DNA from: an uncultured bacterium
Lineage (GTDB): Bacteria > GCA-001730085
DNA length: 32,000 bases
NCBI GenBank assembly: GCA_964565945.1
Contig: CAZMGY010000011.1
Location: forward strand, 1 to 32,000
Reading direction: 5' to 3'
The translations under genes were made by a program, and so were the position numbers. This document shows positions 1,614 to 27,107 of the stretch, piece by piece (the first letter of the stretch is position 1; the number at the start of each line of letters is the position of its first letter). The notes under the pieces were generated by a model that ran no database searches, was not told where the DNA came from, and worked only from the letters and a program-made list of their open reading frames with translations.

Positions 1614-1754
1614 ACACGCTTGTGAACGATAGTTAGGAGGATGCATCTGGTGTGAAAAGGGTCTTTGGGGCTATTCCTGTAGCCGAAGTGGTGGGGGAGG
1701 AGCTTTTGGATCTTCGAAATCTGGGTGATTGGACAAGTAAGGAGAAAAGACATA

Positions 1755-2408
1755 ATGGGCAAAGGTGTGATTTTTGATTTGGATGGAACGTTGATTAATA
1801 GCATTGAAGATTTAGGAACTTCGATGAATGTGGCTTTGGAGGCTTTGGGCTGTCCTGAGCGTTCCTTGGCTTTTTATAAAGGGATCATTGGTGGAGGTGT
1901 TAAGGATTTTACTTGCCAGTCGTTGCCCGAGAATGACCGATCCAACGAGCCCCTTGTTGCTGAGTGCATGTGCATGTTTCAAGAACATTATCAAGATCAT
2001 TGGGCGGACAAAAGTCATTTGTATGAGGGGATTGCAGAGATGCTTGACTATTTTCAAGCTCAAGGAGTGCCGATGAATATTTTGTCCAACAAACCAGATG
2101 CTTTTGTGCAAAATATTGTGAAGCATTATTTTCAGAATTGGAGTTTTGTTTGTGTGTCGGGTGCTGTGGAGAATTTTCTTCCTAAGCCCGATCCCACCTT
2201 GCTCAAACGCATGATGCAAATTATGAATCTAGATGCGCAAGATATGTATTACATTGGAGATACAGAAGTCGATGTGGCTACGGCACGTAATGCTGGTTGT
2301 CTAGCGGTGGCGGTTATGTGGGGGTTTCGCCACGAAGATAGGTTGCGAGCAGCACGTCCAGATTACTGCTTGCAGGAACCTGCTCAACTAAAGGACCTTA
2401 TCGGATAG
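1755..2408 (+). CDS. HAD-superfamily phosphatase (phosphoglycolate phosphatase-like)
   Basis: HAD motifs are present: I FDLDGTL, II ILSNKP, III PKPDP, IV YIGDTEVD. I prefer ATG 1755 (MGKGVIFDLDGT) over the track start 1725 because AAGGAG lies 8-9 nt upstream. Confidence 0.85.
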   Translation: MGKGVIFDLDGTLINSIEDLGTSMNVALEALGCPERSLAFYKGIIGGGVKDFTCQSLPENDRSNEPLVAECMCMFQEHYQDHWADKSHLYEGIAEMLDYFQAQGVPMNILSNKPDAFVQNIVKHYFQNWSFVCVSGAVENFLPKPDPTLLKRMMQIMNLDAQDMYYIGDTEVDVATARNAGCLAVAVMWGFRHEDRLRAARPDYCLQEPAQLKDLIG

Positions 2409-2484: not shown

Positions 2485-2518
2485 TTTTCATAAATAATTG
2501 ATAAAAGGAGGAACCTCA

Positions 2519-3685
2519 ATGTTGAAACAGGTGATTTTAATGAGTTTTGTGGCATGGACCGGATTAACTGGTGTTGCTCAAGCTCAAGAGAGCACTCAGC
2601 TTAAGCAAGATTTTATTAAGACCTATAGTCGTTTGGTCTACTTGAATTATGCTGATGCCTATAATAAAGCTTTGGATTTGCAAGACTGCATCGAGGCGTT
2701 TTTAAATCGTCCGAACGAAGGAACTTTGGCCGCGGCTCAACAAAGCTGGTTGATGTCGCGTGTGCCTTATGGACAGTCGGAAGTGTTCCGTTTTTATGAA
2801 GGTCCGATTGATTTTGTTGATGAAGTTCGTGGTTTAGAAGGGCCTGAAGGGCGTTTAAACTCATGGCCTCTCGATGAAGCTTATATTGATTATGTGGAAG
2901 GTAATCCCAAAGCTGGTTTGGTTCAAAATACAGCGATGAGCTTGACCAAAGAAACATTATCGGCTAAAAATCAGGAAAATGACGAAGCAGATGTGGCTTT
3001 AGGTTACCATTCGATTGAATTTTTGTTGTGGGGTCAAGATTTGAATGATTTTGGTCCAGGTCAACGCCCTGTGAAAGATTATTTGCTGGGGGACTCCGTG
3101 TGTGAGCGACGACGCACCTATTTACGCTTGGTCACCGAAATTTTGATTGAAGATCTTAAGTTTTTGGTCAATGAATGGGATCCTCAAGGTCGCGACAATT
3201 ATGTGGAACGATTTCTGCTTAAAGATGTCAATGTGGTTTTGGCCGATGTGCTCACGTCTTTGGCTACTATGAGCGGATTTGAACTGTCAGCTGAGCGGAT
3301 GGCAGTGCCCTTAGATAGTGGTGATCCCGAAGATGAACATTCCTGTTTTAGCGACAACACGCATAACGATTTTCTTTTTAATGCTTTAGGTTTGGCGAAT
3401 GTTTATTACGGCACTTATGGCACTTTTGATGGTACGGGCCTTGATCAAATTATTGTGGCGTACAATGCCGATTTGGATCAAATGATTAGAGAAAAATTAA
3501 ATCAAGTGTTTAACCGAATGGGGAAGATTGGGGTTCCGATTGATTATCGTGTCTTAGGTTCTTTTGAAGATAGTCGTGAGCGCCGGGTAATGGAGCAAAC
3601 GATCCAAGCTTTGATGAGCTTAGCTGATTTGTTCAAACAGGCGGGGCCTATTTTGGGTGTTAATGTGGAAATGCGCAGTGAATAG
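2519..3685 (+). CDS. Periplasmic imelysin-like protein (Peptidase_M75 / IrpA-like, EfeO-related)
   Basis: Signal peptide MLKQVILMSFVAWTGLTGVAQAQ. The family-typical HxxE block GYHSIEFLLWGQD is present. I prefer ATG 2519 with its AAAGGAGG RBS over the track start 2498. Confidence 0.8.
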   Translation: MLKQVILMSFVAWTGLTGVAQAQESTQLKQDFIKTYSRLVYLNYADAYNKALDLQDCIEAFLNRPNEGTLAAAQQSWLMSRVPYGQSEVFRFYEGPIDFVDEVRGLEGPEGRLNSWPLDEAYIDYVEGNPKAGLVQNTAMSLTKETLSAKNQENDEADVALGYHSIEFLLWGQDLNDFGPGQRPVKDYLLGDSVCERRRTYLRLVTEILIEDLKFLVNEWDPQGRDNYVERFLLKDVNVVLADVLTSLATMSGFELSAERMAVPLDSGDPEDEHSCFSDNTHNDFLFNALGLANVYYGTYGTFDGTGLDQIIVAYNADLDQMIREKLNQVFNRMGKIGVPIDYRVLGSFEDSRERRVMEQTIQALMSLADLFKQAGPILGVNVEMRSE

Positions 3686-5075
3686 AACGTCCTTTTTGCT
3701 ATTCCTACTCCTATGGGGGGGGCTATGCATTTCAAAAAATTTACAAGCCTTGGACAATAGCGATAAGCGTGACTTTCGCTCTAAATTGATGTCGGGTGGT
3801 GAGACAACCGTGATTAATACGTCGCGCGAGGCTTTTGCAAAGCCAGCGGCTAATTTACCAATGGCTAAGCTGAGGGACTTTACTTTTGGCAACCGTGTGT
3901 TCAACACCAAATGGGTGACGGCACCAGCCTCGGTGAAAAGTTTTGATGGTTTAGGACCTCTTTTTAATCAACGTTCGTGCTCGGCTTGTCATTTTAAGGA
4001 TGGGCGTGGTCGCCCTCCTCTCGAGAATGAAACTGAGATGACATCGATGCTGGTGCGAGTGAGTGTTTGGAATGAAGATGGTACGCAGGCGATTGATCAT
4101 CCTGTTTATGGAAATCAAATCAATGAGCGAGGTATTTTGAATATTAAGGGTGAAGGACGTATTGAAATTACCTATGAAGAAGTGGAAGGTCGTTTTGCCG
4201 ATGGAGAAGTTTATTCTTTGCGTAAACCAACTTATCACTTCAAAGACATGAATTATGGATCCGTAGAAGACGATCTTTTGTTTTCACCACGGGTGGCGCC
4301 TTCAATGTTTGGTTTAGGACTTCTTGAAGCTATTTCGGAAGAAACCATTTTAGCGTTTGTTGATGAAGACGATTGCGATGGTGAGGGCATTTCGGGGCGA
4401 GCCAACTATGTGGAAGATAAGGTTAAAGGTGAAATTCGTTTAGGTCGCTTCGGTTGGAAAGCAAATCAACCCAGCTTGCGCCAACAAAATGCGAAGGCGA
4501 TTATTGGAGATATTGGGATCACCAGTGATTTATTTCCCGATGAAAATGTAACCGCGATACCGAATGCGGAGTTTGTTTCGGGAGGGGCACCTGAACTTTC
4601 AAGCAAGTTTTTGGATAAGCTAACGTTTTACGTTCAAACTTTGGCTGTTCCTGCGCGACGCAAGGTTGGTGACCACCTTGTGCTGAAAGGAGAAGAGATT
4701 TTTAAAAAAGCCAATTGTCACAGTTGTCATAAAGAGACGTTGGTGACAGGTGAGCACGAGGATGTGCCAGAGTTATCGCGACAGACCATTCATCCGTACA
4801 CAGATCTTTTATTGCATGATATGGGCGAAGGTTTAGCTGATGGGCGGCCTGATGGTCAGGCGAATGGACGTGAGTGGCGCACCGCTCCTTTGTGGGGTAT
4901 TGGCTTGACGAAGACCGTTAACAAGCATACTTTTTTTCTGCACGATGGTCGAGCGCGTAATTTGATGGAAGCGCTTTTGTGGCATGGGGGTGAAGCTGAA
5001 GCAGCAAAACAACACGTGCTTCAGCGGGATAAAGATGATCGAACAGCTTTGATGGTGTTTTTAAATTCTCTTTAG
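3657..5075 (+). CDS. Di-haem cytochrome c DUF1111 protein (annotated in databases as thiol oxidoreductase or putative peroxidase)
   Basis: Two CxxCH haem-binding motifs (CSACH, CHSCH). N-terminal signal-like segment NRTSFLLFLLLWGGLCIS. The length (472 aa) is typical of DUF1111. The start is GTG 3657 or ATG 3663; either overlaps the imelysin stop at 3685. Confidence 0.8.
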   Translation: MLMWKCAVNRTSFLLFLLLWGGLCISKNLQALDNSDKRDFRSKLMSGGETTVINTSREAFAKPAANLPMAKLRDFTFGNRVFNTKWVTAPASVKSFDGLGPLFNQRSCSACHFKDGRGRPPLENETEMTSMLVRVSVWNEDGTQAIDHPVYGNQINERGILNIKGEGRIEITYEEVEGRFADGEVYSLRKPTYHFKDMNYGSVEDDLLFSPRVAPSMFGLGLLEAISEETILAFVDEDDCDGEGISGRANYVEDKVKGEIRLGRFGWKANQPSLRQQNAKAIIGDIGITSDLFPDENVTAIPNAEFVSGGAPELSSKFLDKLTFYVQTLAVPARRKVGDHLVLKGEEIFKKANCHSCHKETLVTGEHEDVPELSRQTIHPYTDLLLHDMGEGLADGRPDGQANGREWRTAPLWGIGLTKTVNKHTFFLHDGRARNLMEALLWHGGEAEAAKQHVLQRDKDDRTALMVFLNSL

Positions 5076-5080
5076 ATTAA

Positions 5081-8000
5081 ATGGTAAAAAGGATGAAACA
5101 TCTTGTGAAGAAATATTCGTGGGTATTAGTGCAAGTTATTTTTTGTTTTATTAGTGGGACTGTCTTACCTAGTTCGGTGGCATGGGGCTTAGCACCTCAA
5201 TCTCAGGTAAACTCTTTGGCACAAGTTGATTGGAAAAATGTGCCTAGGAACGAATCTCAAAGTTCTTTCATAACAGCTCTTGATAAATCTGAAGAAAGTC
5301 TAGATAAGGATCGTTCTGTTAAGGAATTCACCTTTGAAGAAAAAATCGCCGACCTTTCTCGAGGGCAGCAATTTTTTTTGAAGTTGCCTGTCGAATACCT
5401 GTATTTGTTTTCGATTATTTTTGTTTTGATTTATATTTTTAGTGGAGGTAATTTTTATAGCTTTATTTTGTTAGGAGTGGGTTTGTTACCATTTTTGCAT
5501 TGGGTGTGGCTTAAAATTGAGCCTTATTGGGCCAAAACATTAGCCAAATCCTTGAATTGGTTGCGCAACAAAGAAGCCTTTTTAGTTTTTTTTGCCGCGT
5601 TGTTATTGGTGATTGAAATTATGGGTCACATTGGGATTGTCTTAGGACCTTTTTCGACCGTCTTTTTTGTGATTGGCTTGGTGGGTGTGATTCTGTTTGC
5701 TTTACCCATGATTTACAACGGGTTTTTGGTCTTAATGTACTTTTTTGAAAAACTATTTCGTGGTGAAAATCCGTTTGAAGAACTCAATGAAGAGTTCACC
5801 AAAGGTTTGGCATTCTTTTTGTTGATTTTTCTTCCTTTGGTGACAGGGGCGTTTCCTTTAGATTTGGTTGCGGTGGCTTTGATTGCCGTGGTGATTCAGT
5901 TAGCTGAAGTTTTGGAAGAGCATATGATTAAGATGAAAGATAAAGCCGTTGAAGATCTCAAGAGAGAAATTCCCGATCAAGTGCGGGTGGTGCGTTGGGG
6001 AGATAAGGTGTTTGAGACCGATCAATTGCCGACGGTGCCTCTCGAACGAGTGGAAAAAGCTTTGGCCAAGGGGACTTCTATTGTTGTACGTGTGTTAAGA
6101 AATGAGCCTGTTCCTAAAATCGATGGTTACGTTGCGGGCTTTGAAGAGGCCACACGGGTCGATAAATCGGCATTTAATGGGGAGTCGAAAGCTGTGCCCC
6201 TTAAAGAATATGACTTTCTCGAGGGCGGCTCCTTGGTCTTGAATGGCTATGTTGATATTCGTGTTGATAAAGCTGGCGACGAAACCGAAATTGGTAAAAT
6301 TGAAGCATCTCTCACAGAGTTTGATCCGAAAGGATTTTCCGAGGTGAAAGCTTTGTCGGATAAAGTGATCAAATACTTTGGTTTAGGTTTGATTTTGATT
6401 GCTTTAGTAGGTTTTGTTGTGAGTGGTTCGTGGATGGTGACGATTGCGGCCTTGGCGGCTGTCTGTGCCTGTCCCTTCTTGGTGGGGATTCCCTTGGCTT
6501 TTGTGGCGGCTCGTCAAAATATGGCTACCAAAAATATTGCGATTCGCAAGAATGAATCCTTTTCTCCGATCAATGTTTTGGTTCTTGACAAAACCGACAC
6601 CATTACGGTGAACAAAAAAATGAAACTCGATCCTAAGCAGCCCGTATGGATGTTTGATGCCAACGAAGATCCGAAGGTCTTGTTGTATCAGGCTGCGGTG
6701 GTAGAGCGAGAGCTAGAAGAAAGCAATCCTTATGCGCGTGTGATTATGAATCAAGCTTTGGAGGATGGATGGACGCGTGCTCAGATTAACAAAGAATTAC
6801 TCACGAGTTTTGATGCAAAATCGAGAGGAGCGTGGGGCTATGTGCAGGGGAGACGTTTGTTTTTGGGGAATATGAAACAGCTACGGCAAGTGACTCAAGG
6901 AGATATTGTTCAAGAAAATTTGATTCAAGACAAGGTGGATTCGTTTTCGGCCGAAGGGATTACACCCATTGTGGCGTACGATTTAGAAGCAGGCAAACCT
7001 CTCGGAGTTTTACGCGTGACACAGCATTTGCGTGAAGGAGTGGATCAGCTTATCAATAATTTTTTGGACATGGGTAAATTGACCTGGTATCAAAAAATCT
7101 TCAATGTTTTGTCTAAAAAAATGTTTCATTTTGAACCGTATCCTAAGAATATCCTTCCGATGGTGGCCTCGGGAGATACCAAAAACAGTGTTAAATATGT
7201 CTTGAAGCAAACACCGATTAAGTTCGGTATGGCTGAGGTAACACCACGACAAAAAACGATTATTGTCTATTGGCTACAAAATGATGGTAATGTCGATAAA
7301 ATTAAACAAGAGCTACAAGGACGTCAGGAGCCACTTGTTTTTAATTGGCACGAATTTAAGAAAAAGTTTCTTAATGACGATGAAGGTCGTGCTTTTTTGA
7401 AAAAGTATCGTAAACTAGAAAAATCGCTTAAAGCGGGTGAGGATAAGCCTGTTATTAAATCGAATCCTAACCGGGTTGGTATGATTGGTGATGGAACCAA
7501 CGACACAATGGCGCTCAAGATGGCTGATGTTGGCTTTTCCTTTGAGTCGGCCACTAAATTTTCTAAATCAGCAGCAGATGTTTTGTTAGGTGATGGGGAC
7601 GATGTGTTTAAAAATTTAAATACCTTTCTCAAAATGCAGCGTCGCACCTATACGACAATCTTTATTAATATTTTTATTGTCGCGGTGATTTGGAATTTAA
7701 TGATGGTGAGTTTGATTTTTGCGGGCATTCTTGAGCCTCAAATTGCGGCCTTGCTTCATTCCATGAATACTGTTTTGGTTATACTGCTGTCTTTGGCTCT
7801 TATGGCTAAGCCTGGTACCCATTTTAAAGAGTTGTTTTTTGGTGGAAGTTCTTCTTCGAAAGAAAAGGAAGACTCTGCCAAACCTAAACCTAAGAAAGCT
7901 ATTGTGGCTTCAGATGAGGGTGATGAACAGCATAAACACAAGAATCCTCATGCCAGTTGTAAGTTGTGTCAGAAAATTGTGGCCAAACCAAAACCCGAGG

Positions 8001-8674
8001 ACAGAGGTGGTTTGAATCAAAAAATCTTGCAAGATGTTTTGGATCGCTGGGAAAGTTTTTCTGCAGTGGAACGAATGAATGGAGTTTTTGTTGATAATTA
8101 TGCCTTGGGTTTGGATCAAAGGGTATCGCTCGAACTTCTTGTGAAGTGGGTGCATAACAATCGTCGTCGAATCACAATTCAAAAACCCCGTTTTTTGCCT
8201 GAATTTAGTTCGTGGCATGTTTCGGATGAATGTTATGAGATTGAGGTAAATCCATCTTATCAAACTTGGCCTGAATATGAAGCTTTGTTGCAGTCTCAGA
8301 TTGTACGTAATGTGTTAGAAATGTATCTGACTGACCGTTTGCGTTTACAGAGAATAGATGCTGACAAGATTCGTTTAAGGTACTCCCAACAGTGGTTTGC
8401 TTGGCTTTATGAGTACCAGGTGATTATGATGGCTGTTTTATATGGAGATCAGTTAGACCAAATACGTCAAGCGTTTAAGCGTTATGAACAAAAGATACAT
8501 CCTTGGCAAGAGCACTCTACTGTTCTAAATGATGTGTTTAGCCGTACATTTGAGCAATTACAACAGGACAGAGCAATGTATGATATAAAAGGTGCTGAGA
8601 TTCAAAATTGGATTCGAAGATCTAATATATACAATCAAACAAGGTTTAATCTTAAAATACTTGTGGCTGCGTAA
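5081..8674 (+). CDS. P1B-type (heavy-metal) P-type ATPase-like fusion protein, 1197 aa, with atypical core motifs and extra N- and C-terminal regions
   Basis: Ordered P1B landmarks are all present. A-domain: FNGESKAVPL (6176-6187). TM motif: CACPFLVGIPLA (6464-). Phosphorylation site: LDKTDTIT (6587-6601). N-domain: ESNPYARVI (6725-6730). Also VASGDTKNS (7169-7177), AEVTPRQKTIIVYWLQNDG, GMIGDGTNDTMALKMADVGFSF (7487-7504), then two C-terminal hydrophobic helices. It starts 5 nt after the DUF1111 stop. Confidence 0.8.
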   Translation: MVKRMKHLVKKYSWVLVQVIFCFISGTVLPSSVAWGLAPQSQVNSLAQVDWKNVPRNESQSSFITALDKSEESLDKDRSVKEFTFEEKIADLSRGQQFFLKLPVEYLYLFSIIFVLIYIFSGGNFYSFILLGVGLLPFLHWVWLKIEPYWAKTLAKSLNWLRNKEAFLVFFAALLLVIEIMGHIGIVLGPFSTVFFVIGLVGVILFALPMIYNGFLVLMYFFEKLFRGENPFEELNEEFTKGLAFFLLIFLPLVTGAFPLDLVAVALIAVVIQLAEVLEEHMIKMKDKAVEDLKREIPDQVRVVRWGDKVFETDQLPTVPLERVEKALAKGTSIVVRVLRNEPVPKIDGYVAGFEEATRVDKSAFNGESKAVPLKEYDFLEGGSLVLNGYVDIRVDKAGDETEIGKIEASLTEFDPKGFSEVKALSDKVIKYFGLGLILIALVGFVVSGSWMVTIAALAAVCACPFLVGIPLAFVAARQNMATKNIAIRKNESFSPINVLVLDKTDTITVNKKMKLDPKQPVWMFDANEDPKVLLYQAAVVERELEESNPYARVIMNQALEDGWTRAQINKELLTSFDAKSRGAWGYVQGRRLFLGNMKQLRQVTQGDIVQENLIQDKVDSFSAEGITPIVAYDLEAGKPLGVLRVTQHLREGVDQLINNFLDMGKLTWYQKIFNVLSKKMFHFEPYPKNILPMVASGDTKNSVKYVLKQTPIKFGMAEVTPRQKTIIVYWLQNDGNVDKIKQELQGRQEPLVFNWHEFKKKFLNDDEGRAFLKKYRKLEKSLKAGEDKPVIKSNPNRVGMIGDGTNDTMALKMADVGFSFESATKFSKSAADVLLGDGDDVFKNLNTFLKMQRRTYTTIFINIFIVAVIWNLMMVSLIFAGILEPQIAALLHSMNTVLVILLSLALMAKPGTHFKELFFGGSSSSKEKEDSAKPKPKKAIVASDEGDEQHKHKNPHASCKLCQKIVAKPKPEDRGGLNQKILQDVLDRWESFSAVERMNGVFVDNYALGLDQRVSLELLVKWVHNNRRRITIQKPRFLPEFSSWHVSDECYEIEVNPSYQTWPEYEALLQSQIVRNVLEMYLTDRLRLQRIDADKIRLRYSQQWFAWLYEYQVIMMAVLYGDQLDQIRQAFKRYEQKIHPWQEHSTVLNDVFSRTFEQLQQDRAMYDIKGAEIQNWIRRSNIYNQTRFNLKILVAA

Positions 8675-11214: not shown

Positions 11215-12201
11215 ATGATGCGGTTAGGACAGAGGCTCTTGGTGTGTATGGTATTGGTGAGTTCATGGGCGCATGCGGAGGAATTGACGATTTATTCGGG
11301 ACGTTCCGAAAAATTAGTGGGGCCCATTCTTAAGCAATTTGAAGAAGAAACGGGAGTGAAGTTAAATATTCGTTATGGCAAAACGCCTCAACTTGCAGCA
11401 GCCATTATCGAAGAAGGACGTCGTTCCCCAGCCGATATTTTTTATGCCCAAGATGGGGGTGCTTTAGGTGCTCTGGCCGAAGAATCTTTGCTAACAGCGA
11501 TTAGTGATAATCTGATTGGTCAAGTCGATGTACGTTTTGTTTCTCCAACGGGCAGCTGGATTGGCATCACTGGACGTGCTCGCACGGTCGATTACAACAC
11601 TGAGGCTGTCAATCTCGATGAGTTACCCAATTCGATTTGGGGGTTTTTGGACAAACGTTGGTCACAAGGAAGGATTGGTTGGGCCCCTTTGAATAGTTCG
11701 TTTCAATCTTTTGTGGCGGCTCTTTTGGTGACGCAGGGCGAAGAGCGCACGCGTTTATGGTTGCGTGGAATTCTAGCCAATCAGCCACAAGTTTATCCTA
11801 AAAACACACCAATTGTGGCGGCTTTAGGGCGGGGAGAAATTGAAGTTGGTTTTGTGAATAATTACTATTTGCATCGCTTTTTGGCCAAAAACCCTAACTT
11901 TCCAGTGGCTCATCACTACACCAAAGGAGACGCTGGTTCGATGATTAACATTGCTGGGATGGGAATTCTACGTTCGTCGAACAAAACAGAGTTGGCGGAA
12001 AAGTTGATTCAATATTTGCTATCGGCCAAAGCCCAAACTTATTTTGCCGAAAATACCTTTGAATATCCCTTAGTGAAAGGTGTGAATGTGCAAGGTCCTC
12101 AGAAAACATTGCAAGATGTGCCAGCACCTGATTTGGATTTGAGTAACTTGAAACGTATTCGCGAAGCGGTTCGAATTCTCAAAGACGAAAGGGTGCTCTA
12201 G
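11215..12201 (+). CDS. Fe(III) ABC transporter periplasmic substrate-binding protein (FbpA/AfuA/FutA family)
   Basis: Signal peptide MMRLGQRLLVCMVLVSSWAHA. The family-typical N-terminal block ELTIYSGRSEKLVGPILKQFEEETGVKLNIRYG and SPADIFYAQD are present. Confidence 0.85.
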   Translation: MMRLGQRLLVCMVLVSSWAHAEELTIYSGRSEKLVGPILKQFEEETGVKLNIRYGKTPQLAAAIIEEGRRSPADIFYAQDGGALGALAEESLLTAISDNLIGQVDVRFVSPTGSWIGITGRARTVDYNTEAVNLDELPNSIWGFLDKRWSQGRIGWAPLNSSFQSFVAALLVTQGEERTRLWLRGILANQPQVYPKNTPIVAALGRGEIEVGFVNNYYLHRFLAKNPNFPVAHHYTKGDAGSMINIAGMGILRSSNKTELAEKLIQYLLSAKAQTYFAENTFEYPLVKGVNVQGPQKTLQDVPAPDLDLSNLKRIREAVRILKDERVL

Positions 12202-12206
12202 ATTTT

Positions 12207-13745
12207 ATGATTCAGCGTTGCTATGGGGGCTTGTTGAGCTTTATCCTGCTTTTGCCATTGGTCTATGTGGCGATCCATGTCTATCAATTTGGTTGGCAGT
12301 GGGGCGATTTTTTAGGGCAGCCAGATTTATGGCGAGCTGTCCAAGGATCGGTGGTTTTGGTGTTTGCAGTGGTATTACTGTCGTGTGTTTTGGCTTTGCC
12401 AGCGGCTCTCTTGCTCGAAAAAACCGATCTGCCTTGGAGATCTTTTTGGAATATGTGCTTTGTGTTGCCAATGGCAATACCTAGTTTTGCTGGGAGCTTT
12501 GCTTTGATTTCAGCCTTAGGCCCTAAGGGAAGCTTGGTGGCCAACTTACTGAAGCTGGAGTCCCTACCCTCGATTTATGGGCTTCCAGGAGCCGTTCTAG
12601 GAATTTCTTTGTTTACGTTTCCTTATATTTTTTTAGCGGCTCAGGTGGCTTTACGGTCAATGAGTCCTAACCTTGATGAGGTCGCGTTAACGATGGGGGT
12701 GAAACGCCGTTATTTGGTGTTACGCCTATGGTTGCCTTATCTTAAAAAACCTGTGCTCGCGGGGGTTCTTCTGGTTGGATTTTATGCCTTGAGTGATTTT
12801 GGAACACCGACGTTGATGCGTTATACCAGTTTAACGCAAGAGATTTATTTAGCTTACAGTGCTTATTTTGACCGGCAATACGCGGCTGTTCTTAATGTTA
12901 TTTTGGTTGGGATTGCTTTGGTGTTTCTCTGGTTCGAACGGCGTTACCGAGGTCGAACACAACATTTGGAATGTGATCGCGATATGCGCAGAAAGGCCTA
13001 TCGTATTTCGTTAGGGCGTTACCGATATTTGGCGTGGCTGTGGTGTGGCCTGGTGGTGATGCTTTCTTTAGTGATTCCAGTGGGTGTGATGCTGTATTGG
13101 TTAAGTCAGGGGGTGGAGCGCGTATGTGTTTTGAGTGTGTTGCAGCGTTTATTGCCTTCGATGGGTGTGGCCGCTGGTGTGGCTTGTTTGATTACGTGTG
13201 TGATGTATCCAGTCGCCTATTGGGTTCAGCGTAAAGACGGTTACTGGAAACATGTGGAGGGATGCGTTTATGTGGGGTCAGCCATTCCAGGTTTGGTGAT
13301 TGCTTTGGCACTTATTTTTTTAAGCCGTTTTTTGCCAGCCTCCTTCTATCAGTCGTATGGCCTTTTGCTGGTGGGTTATTTGATTTTGTTTGGCGTAAAA
13401 AGCTTTGTGGTGTTGCGTTCGGCGGTGGCTGAAGTTTCAGTGCGCTTGGAAGAAGCGGCGCGCACGCTTGGTGTTAATGAATGGGGCGCTTTTAAGTATG
13501 TGACCTTTCCTTTGACCCGAACAGCTTTGGGAGCATCGTTTATTTTGATTTTTGTGGCGGTGATCAAAGAGTTACCGATCACCTTGTTGTTGGCACCGAT
13601 GGGCTATCAAAGTTTAGCCACCCATATATGGATGAGCACGGAAGAAGCTTTTTTTGCCGAAGCTGCTTTGTCATCTTTGCTCTTGCTCGGGATGGCTGGA
13701 TTGGCTATGATGATGATTTTAAGACAACAAAAGAGGACAGCATGA
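12207..13745 (+). CDS. Fe(III) ABC transporter permease, duplicated two-module type (FbpB/AfuB-like)
   Basis: 512 aa and highly hydrophobic. It has two repeated permease modules, each with an EAA-like loop (LDEVALTMGV..., LEEAARTLGV...). It starts 5 nt after the substrate-binding protein stop. Confidence 0.85.
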   Translation: MIQRCYGGLLSFILLLPLVYVAIHVYQFGWQWGDFLGQPDLWRAVQGSVVLVFAVVLLSCVLALPAALLLEKTDLPWRSFWNMCFVLPMAIPSFAGSFALISALGPKGSLVANLLKLESLPSIYGLPGAVLGISLFTFPYIFLAAQVALRSMSPNLDEVALTMGVKRRYLVLRLWLPYLKKPVLAGVLLVGFYALSDFGTPTLMRYTSLTQEIYLAYSAYFDRQYAAVLNVILVGIALVFLWFERRYRGRTQHLECDRDMRRKAYRISLGRYRYLAWLWCGLVVMLSLVIPVGVMLYWLSQGVERVCVLSVLQRLLPSMGVAAGVACLITCVMYPVAYWVQRKDGYWKHVEGCVYVGSAIPGLVIALALIFLSRFLPASFYQSYGLLLVGYLILFGVKSFVVLRSAVAEVSVRLEEAARTLGVNEWGAFKYVTFPLTRTALGASFILIFVAVIKELPITLLLAPMGYQSLATHIWMSTEEAFFAEAALSSLLLLGMAGLAMMMILRQQKRTA

Positions 13746-14389
13746 GTTCTTATTTAAACGTAAGTTCACTTCAAATCACTTACTCGTCGGGGTGTTGTGT
13801 AGGACCCTATGCCTTTGAGGTGGTGCAAGGAGAGCTCGTGGCTGTGGTTGGTCCGAGTGGGGCAGGTAAGACCACTTTGTTGCGTATCTTGGCTGGGTTG
13901 GTTCAACCCGATCATGGTCAGGTTATTTTGGATCAAAATGTCTTGAGTGATGATAAAACTTTTTTGCCACCGAATAAGCGCCGGGTTGGTTTGGTGTTTC
14001 AAGATTACGTCCTGTTTCCGCATTTAACTGTCGAACAAAATATTGCCTTTGCCTTTAAAGTGATTGGACAGCCTTTTTCAGCCGAAGAGATAGAGATGCG
14101 ACTCCACAAGGTGCGACTTAAGGGCATGCTAAAGCGCTACCCTCACGAATTATCGGGAGGGCAGCAACAACGTGTTGCCTTGATTCGGGCTTTAGCTGCT
14201 GAACCAAAACTCCTCTTGATGGATGAGCCTTTTGCCAGTCTTGATGCCCAACTGCGAGATGATGTGATTCTCGAAACAATGGACACCTTACGTCAGTTGA
14301 AAATGACGAGCCTGATTGTGACCCATAATCCCCAGGAGCTTGAAGCTCATGTGGATCGCGTTTTAGATCTCAGTTGTGAAAACTTTTAG
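13742..14389 (+). CDS. ABC transporter ATP-binding protein (FbpC-like)
   Basis: Walker A GPSGAGKTT, signature LSGGQQQRV, Walker B LLLMDEPF. I prefer ATG 13742 (MSSYLNV), which forms an ATGA overlap with the permease stop. The track start 13628 lies inside the permease gene. Confidence 0.85.
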   Translation: MSSYLNVSSLQITYSSGCCVGPYAFEVVQGELVAVVGPSGAGKTTLLRILAGLVQPDHGQVILDQNVLSDDKTFLPPNKRRVGLVFQDYVLFPHLTVEQNIAFAFKVIGQPFSAEEIEMRLHKVRLKGMLKRYPHELSGGQQQRVALIRALAAEPKLLLMDEPFASLDAQLRDDVILETMDTLRQLKMTSLIVTHNPQELEAHVDRVLDLSCENF

Positions 14390-15587: not shown

Positions 15588-16075
15588 AACGCCACATCAT
15601 TATGGATGGCTACAATGTGATGCACCGTTGGGCGAATGAACGCTTTATGTTACTGTCTGCTGGTCTCGAACAGAAACGCGATGCCTTTGTGAAGCAATTG
15701 CAGGATTATCAGGACTTGCAAGGCGAAGAACTCACGATTGTGTTTGATGGTTATTCGGGGCGTGACAAGGGTTCGAGTGTTAAGAGGGGGCAAACGAAAG
15801 CTTCGCCACGGCAGGTGAAAGTGCTTTTCTCGAAAACTAAGCAAAGCGCTGATACGGTGATTGAGGCGATGGTGGCTCAAGATAAGCACCCGCAAAGCTT
15901 GCTTGTGGTGACAGCCGATCGACAAATCGCTCAATTGGTGCGAGGATATGGGGCGCAGGTGTGGAGTCCTGAATTTTTAGAACAAGATTTGAAACAGGTG
16001 TTAGCAAGTATGCGTAAGGATTTAGACTTTCAAGTGCTTAAACCCAAAGGATGGCGAGTGGAGGATCGATTATGA
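15584..16075 (+). CDS. NYN-domain protein, YacP/Rae1-like (PIN-like ribonuclease fold)
   Basis: Ordered acidic blocks [21 protein letters not shown] and VVTADRQI, as in YacP-like NYN proteins. ATGA overlap with the ruvB stop. Confidence 0.7.
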
Positions 16076-16854
16076 ATAAAATTTTTTATTTGCTCGTAAT
16101 CAATGTGATCGCTGTGCTTGGTTTGTTGTTTTATCTGAACGTTCAGGTGTACTTTAAGGTTAAATCAAATGAAACTCAAATGGGGTTTTCGCAAAAGGTG
16201 GTGCAAGAGGTGCAGCAGTCTAAAATCGTGCTTGAAGAAACCTTAATTAAACACAAAGGGGAAATTACCTTCAAAGAAAAGATGATCGATAAAGAAAAGG
16301 AAAAGTCGATTGAACTTTCGCGCAAACTTTCGGAAAAAGTGAATGAAACCCTTATATTGAAAGATGCGTTGCGTAAGAAAAAGACCATTGAAGAAATGTT
16401 TAACGAAGATCGTATAAAATTTAAAAAGGAGAAAAAAACTTTGCAAGCCGAAGTCGATCAGTTGAAAAAAGATAATAAGGGTCTTAAGGAGCGGATTGAG
16501 CAGCTGAAAAAAGCTCCAGTTTTGACTGGATTGAGCAGTCCGACCCAATTGTCGGGTGTAGGGGCCAGTATGGGGGCATCGGCGTCTAAAAAAACACTAA
16601 AAATCGAAAAACCTAAGCGAGATGCAGGTTTTGTTTTGAGCAAAAATCCCGACTATAACTTTGTGGTAGTTGCTCTGGGCTCCGAAGATGGTATATTTAT
16701 GGGACAGCGTTTGAATGTATTGAGGGAGGGGCAAATTATTGGCAAAGTTAGGGTTGAGAAGATTTTTGACAAAATGAGTTCAGCGGTGATTCTCCAAGAC
16801 ACCTTTCGTGACAAAAAAATCGCGCAGGGTGATAATGTTAGGGTTTTTCGCTAA
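16072..16854 (+). CDS. Membrane-anchored coiled-coil protein with a small C-terminal beta-rich domain (function unknown)
   Basis: I prefer ATG 16072 ([22 protein letters not shown], an N-terminal TM helix), which forms an ATGA overlap with the NYN stop. A long K/E-rich heptad-like stretch follows. C-terminus is FVVVALGSEDGIFMGQRLNVLREGQIIGKVRVEKI...GDNVRVF. Confidence 0.65.
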   Translation: MNKIFYLLVINVIAVLGLLFYLNVQVYFKVKSNETQMGFSQKVVQEVQQSKIVLEETLIKHKGEITFKEKMIDKEKEKSIELSRKLSEKVNETLILKDALRKKKTIEEMFNEDRIKFKKEKKTLQAEVDQLKKDNKGLKERIEQLKKAPVLTGLSSPTQLSGVGASMGASASKKTLKIEKPKRDAGFVLSKNPDYNFVVVALGSEDGIFMGQRLNVLREGQIIGKVRVEKIFDKMSSAVILQDTFRDKKIAQGDNVRVFR

Positions 16855-16919: not shown

Positions 16920-18548
16920 ATGCAATTAAAATTATGGACAACCCTATTGTTGGGTATTTTCTTGGTGGTTGAGCCTGTGTGGGCTCAAAGTATGTTTCGT
17001 AAGGTTAAAAGTGTAAGTGACAATAAAGATTTTAAGGCTAAAAAAGTAACTGAAGCAGCCATGGGAATATCTCTGAATGGGGTTAAAGTGGCTCGTGTAC
17101 CTAACAAAGTTTCAGCTATTCAGATTCCTGAAGATATCGGGGTTGTGAAAACCTCCTATCGAGGGGTTGGCGATCGTCTTGTTGTGCATATTCAGGACGC
17201 TCACTGTAACTACGAAGCACAGACCAATATTTATAAAATTATCAAAAATTTGGCCGAAAACAACAATGTTCGCTTGTTGGCGGTGGAAGGCTCGGTAGGT
17301 TTTATTGATGTGACACCTTTTTCGTCGTTTCCCGATCAGAAAATCAAAGAAGAGGTGGCGGATTTTTTTATGAAAAAAGGCCGGATCACGGGACCAGAGT
17401 ATTATGCGATCACTTCGGAGAAGGATATGGAGCTTTTTGGTATCGAAGACAAAGACAAGTATGCGAAAAACTTGGATGCTTTTAAGAAAACCATGCCTTA
17501 TCGTCCCCGTTTTGAGTCGGTTGTGGCCAAGCTTAAAAATATTTTTGAACAGTTGAAGCCCAAAATTTATAATCGGCAGTTAATTTTGATGGATAGTAAG
17601 GAAAAGGCTCATGATGATCAAGAGATAACTTTTAGTAAGTACTGCGATTTTTTGATTGGAATGGCCAAAAAATCCAAGCTCAATCTTAAAGAATACAGTA
17701 ATATGCTGCAGTTTTCCGTGGTTTCTAACTTGGAAGATGAAATTGACTTTGACAAGGTGGACGAAGAACGAAATGCGTTGATCGAAGGGATTCGCAAGCG
17801 TTTATCGAAGCGTTACTTTCACGAATTGGTTCTTAAAACGACCCATTATAAGAACGGAAAACTGACAGCTGGTGAGTATCATGACTACATTATAAAGTTG
17901 GCGCGTGGTCGTAAAGTCGACCTGGACAACTATAAGAACTTAGGCAACTACACCGAATATATGTTGGCCTATGAGGGGATTGATCACGATGAACTTTTGC
18001 GTGAAAAAGAGATTGTGGAAGATGACGTTAAAATGACAATTTTTGAAAACACAGAGCAAAAATTGATGGCTGATTTGGACAAAGTACTCAAAAAAATTGA
18101 TGGCTTTTATCAATTGGAGATGACTCGGGATGACTTGAATTTTTACAAACGTAAAAAAGATCTCTTTTCGTTTGCAAAGTTTTTGTCTTTTATCGGTACC
18201 TATGCACCGCGCTATAATGTTTCGTTTGATTTGCCTTCGAACATTGTGGAGCTAGATCAGTATTATGGCGACTTTATTGATTATTACGCTTGTGCTAAGA
18301 GTCGTGATGAGGTGCTGAATAATAAAACTTTGGTTCGAATGGATGAGATGGGCGAAAAAATTTCTGTTCAGGTTTGCGGGGGTTTTCACACCGATGGCAT
18401 GATGCGTGAATTGAAGGATAAAAAGATTTCTTACGTTGTGTTGGCGCCACGGATTACCAAAGATGATCCTAATAATCCATACTTGGATATTTTATTGGGT
18501 CGGACACAACCTTTCGATGACCTCTTCGAAGAGGAAGAGGTCGCTTAG
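16920..18548 (+). CDS. Secreted 542-aa hypothetical protein with a ChaN/TIKI/erythromycin-esterase-like motif pair
   Basis: Signal peptide MQLKLWTTLLLGIFLVVEPVWAQ. N-terminal LVVHIQDAHCNYEAQ...RLLAVEG and C-terminal VQVCGGFHTDGM blocks are separated by a long K/E/D-rich helical region. RBS GGGAG. Confidence 0.7.
   Translation: MQLKLWTTLLLGIFLVVEPVWAQSMFRKVKSVSDNKDFKAKKVTEAAMGISLNGVKVARVPNKVSAIQIPEDIGVVKTSYRGVGDRLVVHIQDAHCNYEAQTNIYKIIKNLAENNNVRLLAVEGSVGFIDVTPFSSFPDQKIKEEVADFFMKKGRITGPEYYAITSEKDMELFGIEDKDKYAKNLDAFKKTMPYRPRFESVVAKLKNIFEQLKPKIYNRQLILMDSKEKAHDDQEITFSKYCDFLIGMAKKSKLNLKEYSNMLQFSVVSNLEDEIDFDKVDEERNALIEGIRKRLSKRYFHELVLKTTHYKNGKLTAGEYHDYIIKLARGRKVDLDNYKNLGNYTEYMLAYEGIDHDELLREKEIVEDDVKMTIFENTEQKLMADLDKVLKKIDGFYQLEMTRDDLNFYKRKKDLFSFAKFLSFIGTYAPRYNVSFDLPSNIVELDQYYGDFIDYYACAKSRDEVLNNKTLVRMDEMGEKISVQVCGGFHTDGMMRELKDKKISYVVLAPRITKDDPNNPYLDILLGRTQPFDDLFEEEEVA

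Positions 18549-27031: not shown

Positions 27032-27107
<76 letters not shown>

What the first reader, a model, noticed from the sequence alone, without database searches (positions are those of the whole stretch)
6176..7504. The P-type ATPase core has nearly every signature motif altered while its fold landmarks keep their order
Read directly from the translation:
- Actuator TGES is NGES (6176-6187).
- The TM metal site CPC/CPx is CPF, within CACPF (6464-6478).
- The phosphorylation site DKTGT is DKTDT (6587-6601).
- The P1B nucleotide-domain SEHP is ESNP (6725-6730).
- TGD is SGD (7169-7177).
- GDGxND (7487-7504) and AEVxPxxK...LQ..G are canonical.

The catalytic Asp is retained. The invariant Gly of DKTGT is replaced by Asp, encoded by GAC at 6596-6598; a single A-to-G change would restore Gly. 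An insertion of about 60 aa (residues about 738-797, nt 7292-7471, K/E-rich) also sits between LQNDG and VGMIGDG, where canonical pumps have only a few residues.

Inference: this is either a mechanistically unusual pump or a pseudo-ATPase repurposed as a channel, sensor or scaffold.
Basis: seen in the sequence. Interest (0 to 1): 0.7.

Follow-up and report, generated by a model that had tools for sequence, protein, structure and literature searches.

The report
Divergent heavy-metal pump family, catalytic core intact
This gene encodes a very divergent relative of bacterial heavy-metal pumps, found in only a few uncultured bacteria, that changes several "invariant" side positions (including DKTGT to DKTDT) but keeps every residue that does the phosphate chemistry, so it is more likely an unusual working pump than a dead one.

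Summary
The ORF 5081-8674 (+), 1197 aa, is a real and intact P1B-type (heavy-metal) P-type ATPase homologue.

Two of the five "alterations" need correcting:
- SGD is a normal variant. It occurs in 82 of 215 comparator pumps.
- The TM4 motif is CAC-P, in register with CPC. Both cysteines are kept and the proline has moved by two residues. It is not "CPF".

DKTDT is not an error. Six near-identical variants from independent assemblies all carry it.

An exhaustive search of 1.84 billion representative proteins finds only five related clusters, in a few uncultured genomes with two or three paralogues each. They share two P-domain insertions (about 25 and 60 aa), two extra N-terminal membrane helices, a signal-peptide-like start followed by L[AS]PxS, and long variable tails. 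At DKTGT position 4 they carry G, D or N. All but the most distant member have lost the HP histidine.

Every phosphoryl-transfer and Mg2+ residue is invariant: D503, K504, T507, G698-D699, K725, D804, N807, D808 and G367-E368. The M3-M6 helices are the best-conserved parts.

I read this as a new, fast-evolving variant of P1B pumps that probably still cycles through aspartyl-phosphate. A pseudo-ATPase is less likely but not excluded.

The parts
5081..8674 (+). Complete ORF of the divergent P1B-type ATPase homologue. It is 1197 aa, or 1189 aa if translation starts at the GTG at 5105, as some gene callers chose.
   Evidence: ORF list. Pfam E1-E2_ATPase 4.3e-16. TIGR01525 heavy-metal P-type ATPase 8.8e-57, but 193 bits against a cut-off of 346. 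Best PDB sequence hits are CopA-type pumps. The AF2 model's best fold hits are ATP7B, LpCopA, ZntA and CadA.
5108..5203 (+). Signal-peptide-like hydrophobic N-terminal helix (aa 10-36) followed by the family-specific motif L-[AS]-P-x-S (aa 37-41, nt 5189-5203).
   Evidence: L37, P39 and S41 are invariant in all six family members. N-termini aligned on the motif show small residues at -3/-1. The motif is seen only in family members among the ORFs of the fetched loci.
5390..5518 (+). Two extra transmembrane helices (aa 104-120 and 125-146) N-terminal to the canonical MA helix.
   Evidence: Hydropathy scan. AF2 helices H104-120 and H125-146. The CopA alignment starts at MB, around aa 204.
5573..5965 (+). 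MA, MB (with platform), M1 and M2 helices (aa 165-295).
   Evidence: Alignment to AfCopA from aa 204. AF2 helices H165-184, H189-226, H237-255 and H260-295.
5966..6340 (+). Actuator (A) domain. The TGE motif reads NGES at 6176-6187, and G367-E368 are invariant.
   Evidence: N at this position also occurs in 3 of 215 otherwise ordinary pumps.
6341..6529 (+). M3-M4 helices. The TM4 motif C462-A-C464-P465-F (6464-6478) is in register with CPC-A-L: both Cys are kept and the Pro is displaced by two residues.
   Evidence: C464 is invariant in all six family members. P0090 and P0092 keep CPC.
6587..6601 (+). Phosphorylation motif DKTDT. D503, K504 and T507 are invariant. Position 4 is Asp (GAC).
   Evidence: Family states at position 4 are D, G, N, G, N, G.
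6641..6997 (+). Nucleotide-binding (N) domain (aa 521-639). E542 is kept, the HP motif reads N549-P550 (6719-6730 = ESNP), and GxG is eroded (R582-G583).
7073..7153 (+). P-domain insertion 1 (about 25 aa, aa 665-691), helical, with N675, S678 and F682 conserved in the family.
   Evidence: R651 to G698 is 42-46 residues in the family against 21 in comparators. AF2 helix 669-682 with pLDDT of about 80-90. Within-family identity 0.38.
7169..7177 (+). SGD, the TGD-equivalent phosphate-binding motif. This is a normal variant.
   Evidence: G698 and D699 are invariant in 40 sequences. 82 of 215 comparators have SGD.
7232..7255 (+). AEVTPRQK, with the conserved P-domain lysine K725.
   Evidence: K725 is invariant in 40 sequences.
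7289..7471 (+). P-domain insertion 2 (about 60 aa, aa 737-797), helical and K/E-rich, containing the conserved 'PLV.NW.EF' motif.
   Evidence: K725 to G803 is 56-78 residues in the family against 17 in comparators. AF2 helices 737-745, 756-764 and 767-784 with pLDDT above 90.
7487..7504 (+). GDGTND, the Mg2+/phosphate-binding motif, canonical.
   Evidence: G803, D804, G805, N807 and D808 are invariant in 40 sequences.
7604..7810 (+). M5-M6 helices. W871-N872 replaces YN, and H893..N896-T897 replaces MxxSS. These are candidate ligands of the transport site.
   Evidence: H893 invariant in six members. This is the best-conserved segment of the family, identity 0.43.
7931..7969 (+). His/Cys patch HKHKNPHASCKLC (aa 951-963, includes a CxxC) in the cytosolic tail just after M6.
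   Evidence: Comparable His/Cys-rich stretches occur in the tails of P0090 and P0092.
8003..8671 (+). C-terminal domain of about 220 aa and unknown fold, weakly shared with paralogue-type P0090.
   Evidence: No Pfam hit. No homologues by word search. BLASTP to the P0090 tail gives E=2e-4, 21% over 146 aa. AF2 pLDDT is 54 and there are no fold matches.
2498..5075 (+). Upstream genes that are probably co-transcribed: imelysin-like (Peptidase_M75, 2498-3685) and di-haem oxidoreductase DHOR (3657-5075). DHOR ends 5 nt before the ATPase ORF.
   Evidence: Pfam 1.8e-62 and 7.9e-112. Promoter-like TTGACA-17-TAAAAT at 2442-2470 (site counts are not above chance).

Best explanation
The gene encodes a member of a small, fast-evolving, lineage-restricted offshoot of the P1B (heavy-metal) P-type ATPases. 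It most likely still works as a P-type pump.

Proposed cycle (inferred, not shown):
- Asp503 is phosphorylated with Mg2+ held by D804, N807 and D808.
- The phosphate is bound by K504, T505, T507, S697-G698-D699 and K725.
- The phosphoenzyme is hydrolysed by the A-domain Gly367-Glu368 loop.
- This drives a thiophilic or borderline metal ion through a membrane site built from C462, C464 (TM4), N872 (TM5) and H893, N896, T897 (TM6).

The departures from consensus sit at second-shell positions: N for T in TGE, the TM4 Pro shifted by two residues, D for G in DKTGT and N for H in HP. They reflect a remodelled cytosolic head-piece rather than loss of function. That head-piece includes two helical insertions in the P domain, an altered adenine pocket, two extra N-terminal TM helices and long tails carrying His/Cys patches.

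At position 4 of DKTGT the family uses only G, D or N. These are the residues that most easily take a left-handed turn conformation, which suggests the backbone geometry of the phosphorylation loop is still under selection.

The fold, the family, the conserved residues and the insertions are shown here. Catalytic competence, the ion and the direction of transport are inferred.
For: 1. The fold and nearest relatives are P1B pumps.
- phmmer to AfCopA gives 1.7e-18; the family profile gives 1.1e-46.
- The top Foldseek hits are ATP7B, LpCopA, ZntA and CadA, with target-normalised TM-scores of 0.49-0.69.

2. Fourteen positions are invariant across the 5 family members plus 35 ordinary P1B pumps: G367, E368, D503, K504, T507, T509, G698, D699, K725, G803, D804, G805, N807, D808. 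This is the full phosphoryl-transfer and Mg2+ set. It holds although family members are only 27-40% identical to the window protein and the family sits on a long branch.

3. All six genes are intact ORFs with no internal stops. Six strain variants from several independent assemblies keep DKTDT.

4. Constraint by domain is pump-like. Identity is 0.43 for M5-M6, 0.39 for M3-M4, 0.36 for P and 0.26 for N. Comparators give 0.41, 0.41, 0.42 and 0.28.

5. Position 4 of DKTGT is G, D, N, G, N, G in the family, with codons GGA, GAC, AAT, GGA, AAT, GGG. On the NJ tree the D lineage and the N lineage left G independently.

6. NGES also occurs in otherwise canonical pumps, for example P0102 with CPC, DKTGT and SHP. 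SGD is common.

7. His/Cys patches lie in the soluble tails, as in known metal pumps: CxxC at aa 960-963 here, and His- and Cys-rich stretches in P0090 and P0092.

8. In this window the gene is tightly linked to periplasmic iron-associated genes (imelysin, DHOR), and a ferric-type ABC importer lies 2.5 kb downstream.
Against: - The His of the P1B 'HP' adenine-binding motif is replaced in five of the six members (N, S, N, N, N), and the N-domain GxG is eroded in the window protein and lost in P0092. ATP binding may therefore be weak or different.
- Gly at DKTGT position 4 is kept in 214 of 215 comparators. Its replacement by a charged Asp next to the phosphorylation site could be disabling.
- The A domain is less conserved within the family than among ordinary pumps, 0.27 against 0.39.
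- Divergence within two or three genomes equals that of the whole comparator set, which fits relaxed constraint.
- Genomic context is not conserved between paralogues or orthologues, apart from an upstream HAD hydrolase. The iron link is therefore weak.
- The signal-peptide-like N-terminus plus two extra helices gives a topology that does not fit the standard cytoplasmic head-piece.
- There are no biochemical data.
Confidence: 0.55

Rival explanations
1. Pseudo-ATPase. The P1B scaffold has lost productive ATP turnover and serves as a metal-binding sensor, regulator, passive channel or membrane scaffold. The large variable C-terminal domains and P-domain insertions would carry the new function. 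The conserved Asp/Lys/GDGxND pocket is kept only for structural reasons or for ligand (Mg2+ or phosphate) binding.
For: - The HP histidine is lost in five of six members and GxG is eroded.
- G is replaced by D or N at the most conserved position of the superfamily signature in three of six members.
- The first residue of TGE is N or R in four of six members.
- The family sits on a long branch and has a weakly conserved A domain.
- C-terminal extensions are very variable, from 61 to about 1000 aa against a median of 7 in comparators.
- There are two or three paralogues per genome.
- Pfam and NCBIfam scores fall below the subfamily cut-offs.
Against: - All 14 catalytic, Mg2+ and phosphate positions are invariant despite 27-40% overall identity. 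Known pseudoenzymes typically lose the nucleophile or the metal ligands.
- The dephosphorylation Glu368 has no structural role outside catalysis, yet it is invariant.
- The membrane ion-site helices are the most conserved parts.
Confidence: 0.27
2. The protein is phospho-cycling, but not a standard ATP-driven exporter. With its adenine pocket remodelled, it may be phosphorylated by another donor (another nucleotide or a small acyl- or phospho-donor). Alternatively it may act mainly as a metal-gated phosphatase or 'transceptor', with the neighbouring Asp506 speeding up hydrolysis, as the second Asp does in DxDxT HAD phosphatases.
For: - The P-domain and A-domain catalytic residues are kept, while only the N-domain ligands change.
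- An acidic or amide residue lies next to the nucleophile loop in three members.
- From my own knowledge of the HAD superfamily: motif I is DxDx[TV], and residues other than Gly are tolerated at the fourth position.
Against: - The extra Asp is at D+3, not at D+2 where the HAD general acid sits.
- The closest orthologue, P0089, has plain DKTGT, so the feature is not essential to the family.
- E542 of the adenine pocket is invariant, which suggests a nucleotide is still bound.
- This reading is purely inferential.
Confidence: 0.12
3. Artefact or decaying pseudogene. DKTDT and the other changes are sequencing or assembly errors, or recent inactivating mutations private to this genome.
For: GAC is one transition from GGC. 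The closest orthologue has Gly.
Against: - Six protein variants from several independent assemblies all read DKTDT, NGES and CACPF.
- A second assembly of the locus differs at only 2 of 17,125 nt.
- The ORF is intact over 1197 aa, and its relatives are intact as well.
- The HP loss and both insertions are shared with relatives at 27-40% identity.
Confidence: 0.02

Closest known systems
P1B-1 Cu+-ATPases (CopA of Archaeoglobus fulgidus 3j08/7r0g, Legionella pneumophila 3rfu/4bbj, human ATP7B 7si3)
   Same: They are the best sequence and fold matches. Shared features are the MA/MB + M1-M6 core, the A, P and small N domains in the same order, two Cys in TM4, Asn in TM5, and the catalytic residues D, K, T, GD, K and GDGxND.
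   Different: - The TM4 Pro is displaced (CAC-P).
- WN replaces YN, and H..NT replaces MxxSS.
- DKTDT and NGES replace DKTGT and TGES, and HP is lost.
- There is no ferredoxin-like N-terminal metal-binding domain.
- There are two extra TM helices and a signal-like N-terminus.
- The P domain carries insertions of 25 and 60 aa.
- There is a 290-aa C-terminal extension.
- The TIGR01511 score is 135 bits against a cut-off of 397.
Uncharacterised short P1B pumps with CPC in TM4, Asn in TM5 and 'HN.(G/S)S' in TM6 (e.g. P0093, P0099, P0104, P0117; about 620-670 aa)
   Same: They are the highest-scoring non-family hits in the exhaustive search, at about 1e-30 to 1e-25. They share a His at the same TM6 position and the absence of an N-terminal MBD.
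   Different: They have canonical TGES, DKTGT, HP and TGD/SGD. They lack both insertions and the long tails. Their substrate is unknown to me.
P1B-4 Co2+/Fe2+ ATPases (PfeT, CtpD, sCoaT 7qbz type)
   Same: They have a His in TM6 as an ion-site residue and no classical N-terminal MBD. The iron-related neighbourhood in this window would fit an iron-handling pump.
   Different: P1B-4 pumps have SPC in TM4 and HEGxT in TM6, together with DKTGT and HP. This family is not closest to them in score.
HAD-superfamily phosphatases (motif I DxDx[TV])
   Same: The P domain is a HAD fold, with weak Pfam Hydrolase and Hydrolase_3 hits. From my own knowledge, HAD enzymes tolerate residues other than Gly at the fourth motif-I position. 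Both HAD hydrolases next to the family genes read FDLDGTL.
   Different: Here the D+2 residue is Thr, as in pumps, not the catalytic Asp of phosphatases. The protein also has the full pump architecture.

Membership tests
P-type ATPase superfamily | Phosphorylatable Asp in a DKTGT-type loop at the end of the first P-domain strand | tested here: met
   D503 aligns to the CopA phospho-Asp and is invariant in 40 sequences. The literal motif DKTGT is not met (DKTDT).
P-type ATPase superfamily | Literal DKTGT signature (Gly at position 4) | tested here: not met
   Position 4 is D506 (GAC). 214 of 215 comparators have DKTGT.
P-type ATPase superfamily | A-domain TGE loop with the catalytic Glu | tested here: met
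   G367-E368 are invariant. The first residue is N instead of T/S, which is rare but present in 3 of 215 ordinary pumps.
P-type ATPase superfamily | P-domain TGD/SGD, the conserved Lys and GDGxND | tested here: met
   S697-G698-D699, K725, G803-D804-G805, N807 and D808.
P-type ATPase superfamily | Formation of an acyl-phosphate intermediate and ATP hydrolysis | not testable with these tools
   This needs biochemistry.
P1B (heavy-metal) subfamily | MA/MB helices preceding a six-helix core, small N domain, P1B-like fold | tested here: met
   The alignment to CopA runs from MB onward. AF2 helices are listed. The top Foldseek hits are all P1B. Two further helices precede MA.
P1B (heavy-metal) subfamily | CPx-type motif (Pro flanked by Cys/Ser/His) in TM4 | tested here: inconclusive
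   C-A-C-P-F is in register with C-P-C-A-L. Both Cys are present and the Pro is shifted by two residues. Paralogue types P0090 and P0092 keep CPC.
P1B (heavy-metal) subfamily | HP dipeptide (adenine-binding His) in the N domain | tested here: not met
   N549-P550 aligns to H-P. The His is absent in five of six family members and kept only in the distant P0094.
P1B (heavy-metal) subfamily | Score above the curated subfamily cut-off (TIGR01525) | tested here: not met
   193 bits against a cut-off of 346. The general TIGR01494 P-type model passes, at 77 against 62.
P1B-1 Cu+ subgroup | CPC (TM4) + YN (TM5) + MxxSS (TM6) | tested here: not met
   The protein has CAC-P, WN and H..NT.
Pseudoenzyme (dead P-type ATPase) | Loss of the nucleophile, the Mg2+ ligands or the dephosphorylation Glu | tested here: not met
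   All are retained and invariant across the family.

The most novel reading that the evidence does not exclude
This is a previously undescribed clade of P-type-ATPase-derived membrane proteins. It is confined to a few uncultured bacterial lineages, with two or three paralogues per genome. It has rebuilt its cytosolic head-piece with a new helical P-domain subdomain, an adenine pocket without His, and a phosphorylation loop that naturally tolerates Asp or Asn in place of the 'invariant' Gly. It has also acquired an exported-looking N-terminus with a conserved L[AS]PxS motif and variable, sometimes giant, C-terminal domains. On this reading it operates by a modified cycle, for example as a metal-gated transceptor or with a different phosphoryl donor, rather than as a standard exporter.
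Probability: 0.2. Interest if true: 0.7.

Novelty: new variant of a known kind. Interest (0 to 1): 0.5.

Why it matters
DKTGT is treated as the defining, essentially invariant signature of all P-type ATPases. Here a natural family keeps the whole catalytic set but carries Gly, Asp or Asn at position 4 and has no HP histidine.

If these proteins are active, they show what the phosphorylation loop and the P1B nucleotide pocket can tolerate. This bears on how ATP7A and ATP7B disease variants at these motifs are interpreted. They would also add a new P1B subgroup with an unknown ion site (Cys2/Asn/His/Asn) and new accessory domains.

If they are inactive, they would be a rare, clean example of a bacterial pseudo-P-type ATPase that still preserves its catalytic residues.

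Either way the practical reach is modest, because the family is tiny and known only from uncultured organisms.

Tried and rejected
- Word-index protein search with the full protein. It found only the identical cluster and ordinary P1B pumps at 24% identity or less. The family was found only by the exhaustive HMMER search.
- Both scans of GTDB genome contigs. The first found no relative. The second, using the family alignment, picked generic patterns (GDGxND, WN..LI) and returned 80 ordinary P1B loci and no family member.
- Organism identification, which failed:
  - Cluster look-ups carry no names.
  - Accession searches in the paper library found nothing.
  - The best named RuvB relatives are only 66% identical (a 'Chlamydiae bacterium' MAG), followed by Zixibacteria and other candidate phyla at 62-66%.
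- Strain-level dN/dS was impossible, because window and L001 differ at 2 of 17,125 nt.
- RuvB-based synteny in relatives (L090, L091). The downstream genes are conserved, but the ATPase block is not upstream of RuvB there.
- C-terminal domain, which gave nothing: no Pfam hit, no homologues, AF2 pLDDT 54 and no fold match with E<1.
- Literature searches for DKTDT/DKSNT, for pseudo-P-type ATPases, for Gly mutants of DKTGT and for FUPA families gave nothing relevant.
- Rfam found no riboswitch near the operon. The promoter and terminator scan gave site counts at chance level.
- I considered and rejected sequencing error, a pseudogene and mis-registration of the motifs as explanations.
Full report
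**1. What is in the sequence**

The finding lies inside one long ORF, 5081-8674 on the + strand, of 1197 aa. Some gene callers start it at the GTG at 5105, giving 1189 aa.

- NGES at aa 366-369
- CACPF at aa 462-466
- DKTDT at aa 503-507, with GAC as the fourth codon
- ESNP at aa 547-550
- SGD at aa 697-699
- AEVTP..K at aa 718-725
- GDGTND at aa 803-808

Family assignment:
- Pfam sees an E1-E2_ATPase domain (4.3e-16) and only sub-threshold HAD hits.
- NCBIfam's best model is the heavy-metal P1B subfamily TIGR01525 (8.8e-57). At 193 bits it is far below the curated cut-off of 346. The general P-type model TIGR01494 passes.
- The best solved relatives are CopA-type copper pumps.
- An AlphaFold2 model built on a 40-sequence alignment is confident over the core, about aa 100-920. 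Its best fold matches are all P1B pumps: ATP7B, LpCopA, ZntA and CadA.

**2. Are the motifs correctly registered?**

Mostly yes. The residue-by-residue phmmer alignment to A. fulgidus CopA, the 40-sequence alignment and a family profile against the PDB agree on four points:
- NGES sits on the TGE loop.
- DKTDT sits on DKTGT.
- N549-P550 sits on the His-Pro of SEHP.
- GDGTND sits on GDGxND.

Two points need correction.

First, the TM4 motif. C462-A-C464-P-F aligns without gaps to C-P-C-A-L, and the next conserved proline (P471) stays in register. So both cysteines are kept and the proline has moved two residues. This is not "CPF replacing CPC".

Second, SGD is not an alteration.

The real rarities in the same comparator set:

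| Position | Comparators |
|---|---|
| DKTGT position 4 | 214 DKTGT, 1 DKTAT |
| His of HP | present in about 208 |
| First residue of TGE | T 200, S 9, N 3, D 1 |

The 60-aa insertion is real. K725 to G803 is 77 residues against a median of 17.

**3. It is not an error and not a decaying gene**

- The 90% cluster of this protein holds six near-identical variants from NCBI and from several sequencing-run assemblies. All read NGES, CACPF and DKTDT.
- A second assembly of the locus differs at only 2 of 17,125 nt.
- The ORF and those of all its relatives are free of internal stops.

**4. The family**

A word-index search found nothing between identity and ordinary P1B pumps at about 24% identity. 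The exhaustive HMMER search of 1.84 billion representatives found four related clusters:
- P0089, 5e-201
- P0090, 5e-124
- P0091, 9e-119
- P0092, 2e-80

After these the scores fall to about 1e-30 for P0093 and P0094, and the remaining hits listed are ordinary-length pumps. P0094, a 2263-aa protein at 1.5e-30, proved to be a sixth and more distant member. It has the same N-terminal motif and both insertions.

On a neighbour-joining tree of 221 sequences the family is monophyletic, with P0094 as its sister. It sits on a long branch: the mean distance to other pumps is 2.2, against 1.3 among those pumps.

Genomic look-ups show the following:
- One MAG, GCA_001730085.1, carries both P0089 and P0092.
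- The same sample also carries P0091.
- P0090 and P0092 occupy the same slot, purQ-purL-X-purM-purN-mfd.
- The window protein and P0089 both follow an orthologous HAD hydrolase, 43% identical.

So there are at least two or three paralogue types per genome, in a handful of uncultured lineages. I could not name the organism. The best named RuvB relative is only 66% identical, a MAG labelled Chlamydiae, followed by Zixibacteria and other candidate phyla.

**5. Motif states across the family**

| Motif | Window | P0089 | P0090 | P0091 | P0092 | P0094 |
|---|---|---|---|---|---|---|
| TGE loop | NGES | TGES | NGEE | TGEA | NGEE | RGEA |
| TM4 | CACPF | CACPF | CPCAF | SSCPL | CPCSF | CLCPI |
| Phosphorylation loop | DKTDT | DKTGT | DKSNT | DKTGT | DKSNT | DKTGT |
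| HP position | N-P | S-L | N-Q | N-F | N-S | H-P |

- SGD is present in five members and TGD in P0094.
- GDGxND is present in all six.
- TM5 reads WN in five members. TM6 has H893 in all six and N896 in five.

The family ancestor therefore probably had DKTGT and HP. The Gly was left independently in two lineages (GGN to GAC, and to AAT). The His was lost after P0094 branched off.

**6. Active or dead?**

The decisive observation is which residues do not change. In the alignment of the five close members with 35 ordinary P1B pumps, only 14 columns are invariant: G367, E368, D503, K504, T507, T509, G698, D699, K725, G803, D804, G805, N807 and D808. These are:
- the nucleophile
- the phosphate-binding Lys, Thr and GD
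- the Mg2+ ligands
- the Glu that hydrolyses the phosphoenzyme

The family keeps all of them while diverging to 27-40% identity overall. A scaffold that no longer turned over would have no reason to keep the dephosphorylation Glu in particular.

Constraint by domain also looks like that of a pump:

| Segment | Family identity | Comparator identity |
|---|---|---|
| M5-M6 | 0.43 | 0.41 |
| M3-M4 | 0.39 | 0.41 |
| P domain | 0.36 | 0.42 |
| A domain | 0.27 | 0.39 |
| N domain | 0.26 | 0.28 |

Position 4 of the phosphorylation loop is restricted to G, D or N. These are the three residues that most readily adopt a left-handed turn conformation. This is general structural knowledge and was not tested here. 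The pattern suggests that the loop geometry is still selected.

Evidence pointing the other way:
- The adenine-binding His is gone and the N-domain GxG is eroded.
- The A domain is less conserved than usual.
- The branch is long.

I therefore put an active but unusual pump at about 0.55. I put a pseudo-ATPase at about 0.27 and a phospho-cycling protein with a non-standard donor or role at about 0.12. An artefact is close to zero.

**7. What it might carry**

The membrane site differs from every named P1B subgroup that I checked. It has two Cys in TM4, Asn in TM5 and His..Asn-Thr in TM6.

The nearest ordinary pumps form an uncharacterised short group with CPC, Asn in TM5 and 'HN.(G/S)S' in TM6.

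His/Cys patches occur in the soluble tails:
- HKHKNPHASCKLC, with a CxxC, at aa 951-963 here
- His runs and CC pairs in P0090
- 15 Cys/His in the N-terminus of P0092

This is the pattern seen in the metal-binding tails of known P1B pumps.

In this window the gene follows an imelysin-like gene and a di-haem oxidoreductase gene with a 5-nt gap. A ferric-type ABC importer lies 2.5 kb downstream. That hints at iron. However, the closest orthologue and the paralogues sit in unrelated contexts, so the hint is weak.

**8. Features that remain unexplained**

- *Topology.* All six members begin with what looks like a Sec signal peptide: a basic n-region, a hydrophobic core, and small residues at -3/-1 immediately before the conserved L[AS]PxS. 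Two extra TM helices (aa 104-120 and 125-146) precede MA. A cleaved signal peptide followed by two helices would place MA in the wrong orientation for a cytoplasmic head-piece. The topology therefore needs an experiment.
- *The two P-domain insertions.* They are predicted as confident helices. The first is well conserved at 0.38 identity and the second poorly at 0.22. Their role is unknown.
- *The C-terminal domain.* This domain of about 220 aa has no detectable relatives apart from a weak match to P0090.

**9. Verdict**

It is best filed as a new, very divergent variant of the P1B heavy-metal pumps. It fails the literal signatures for DKTGT, HP and the subfamily score cut-off. It passes every test on catalytic residues and on fold.

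Interest is moderate. Natural Asp or Asn at the "invariant" Gly of DKTGT would surprise a specialist. However, the family is tiny, comes from unnamed uncultured bacteria, and nothing can be settled without biochemistry.

Noticed in passing
window 7931-7969 (aa 951-963): A His/Cys patch, HKHKNPHASCKLC, containing a CxxC lies in the tail just after the last membrane helix. Relatives P0090 and P0092 have even richer His/Cys stretches in their N- or C-terminal tails. These look like metal-binding tails.
   Followed up: partly
window 5108-5203 (aa 10-41): The N-terminus resembles a Sec signal peptide and is followed by a motif, L[AS]PxS, that is invariant in all six family members. Together with the two extra TM helices at 5390-5518, this gives a topology that conflicts with a cytoplasmic head-piece.
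   Followed up: partly
window 2498-5075 and 11215-14389: This is an iron-acquisition-like neighbourhood. An imelysin-like (Peptidase_M75) gene and a di-haem oxidoreductase (DHOR) gene lie directly upstream of the ATPase and overlap each other by 29 nt. A ferric-type ABC importer (binding protein, permease, ATPase) lies downstream. A strong -35/-10 match sits at 2442-2470.
   Followed up: partly
window 1725-2408; L002 9089-9757: A HAD_2-type hydrolase with motif FDLDGTL lies upstream of the ATPase-like gene, both here and in the genome carrying the closest orthologue (43% identity). In the window, the imelysin-DHOR pair sits between the hydrolase and the ATPase gene.
   Followed up: partly
L094 8001-14792 (P0094, GCA_040960315.1): A 2263-aa distant member of the same family has a C-terminal extension of about 1000 residues or more, of unknown nature. 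It keeps DKTGT and HP but has RGEA in place of TGE.
   Followed up: partly
window 16051-16854 and 16920-18548: Two ORFs (267 and 542 aa) with no Pfam match follow RuvB-YacP. ORFs of similar size occupy the same position in two distant relatives (L090, L091), so they appear to be conserved lineage-specific genes.
   Followed up: no
window 1-32000: GC skew is uniformly positive (0.08-0.29 in every 1-kb bin), and 25 of the 28 ORFs of at least 150 aa are on the + strand. This is consistent with one replication arm. The organism could not be named; its RuvB is at most 66% identical to any named relative.
   Followed up: partly
window 27032-27107 (-): tRNA-Phe (GAA) is the only RNA gene detected. 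It is on the minority strand.
   Followed up: no
L090, L091 (relatives with RuvB 81% and 76% identical): Synteny downstream of RuvB is conserved in these relatives, but pheS/pheT lie upstream in place of the block from the HAD hydrolase to the ABC importer (about 12.7 kb). That block, including the ATPase-like gene, is therefore placed differently or is absent in relatives.
   Followed up: partly
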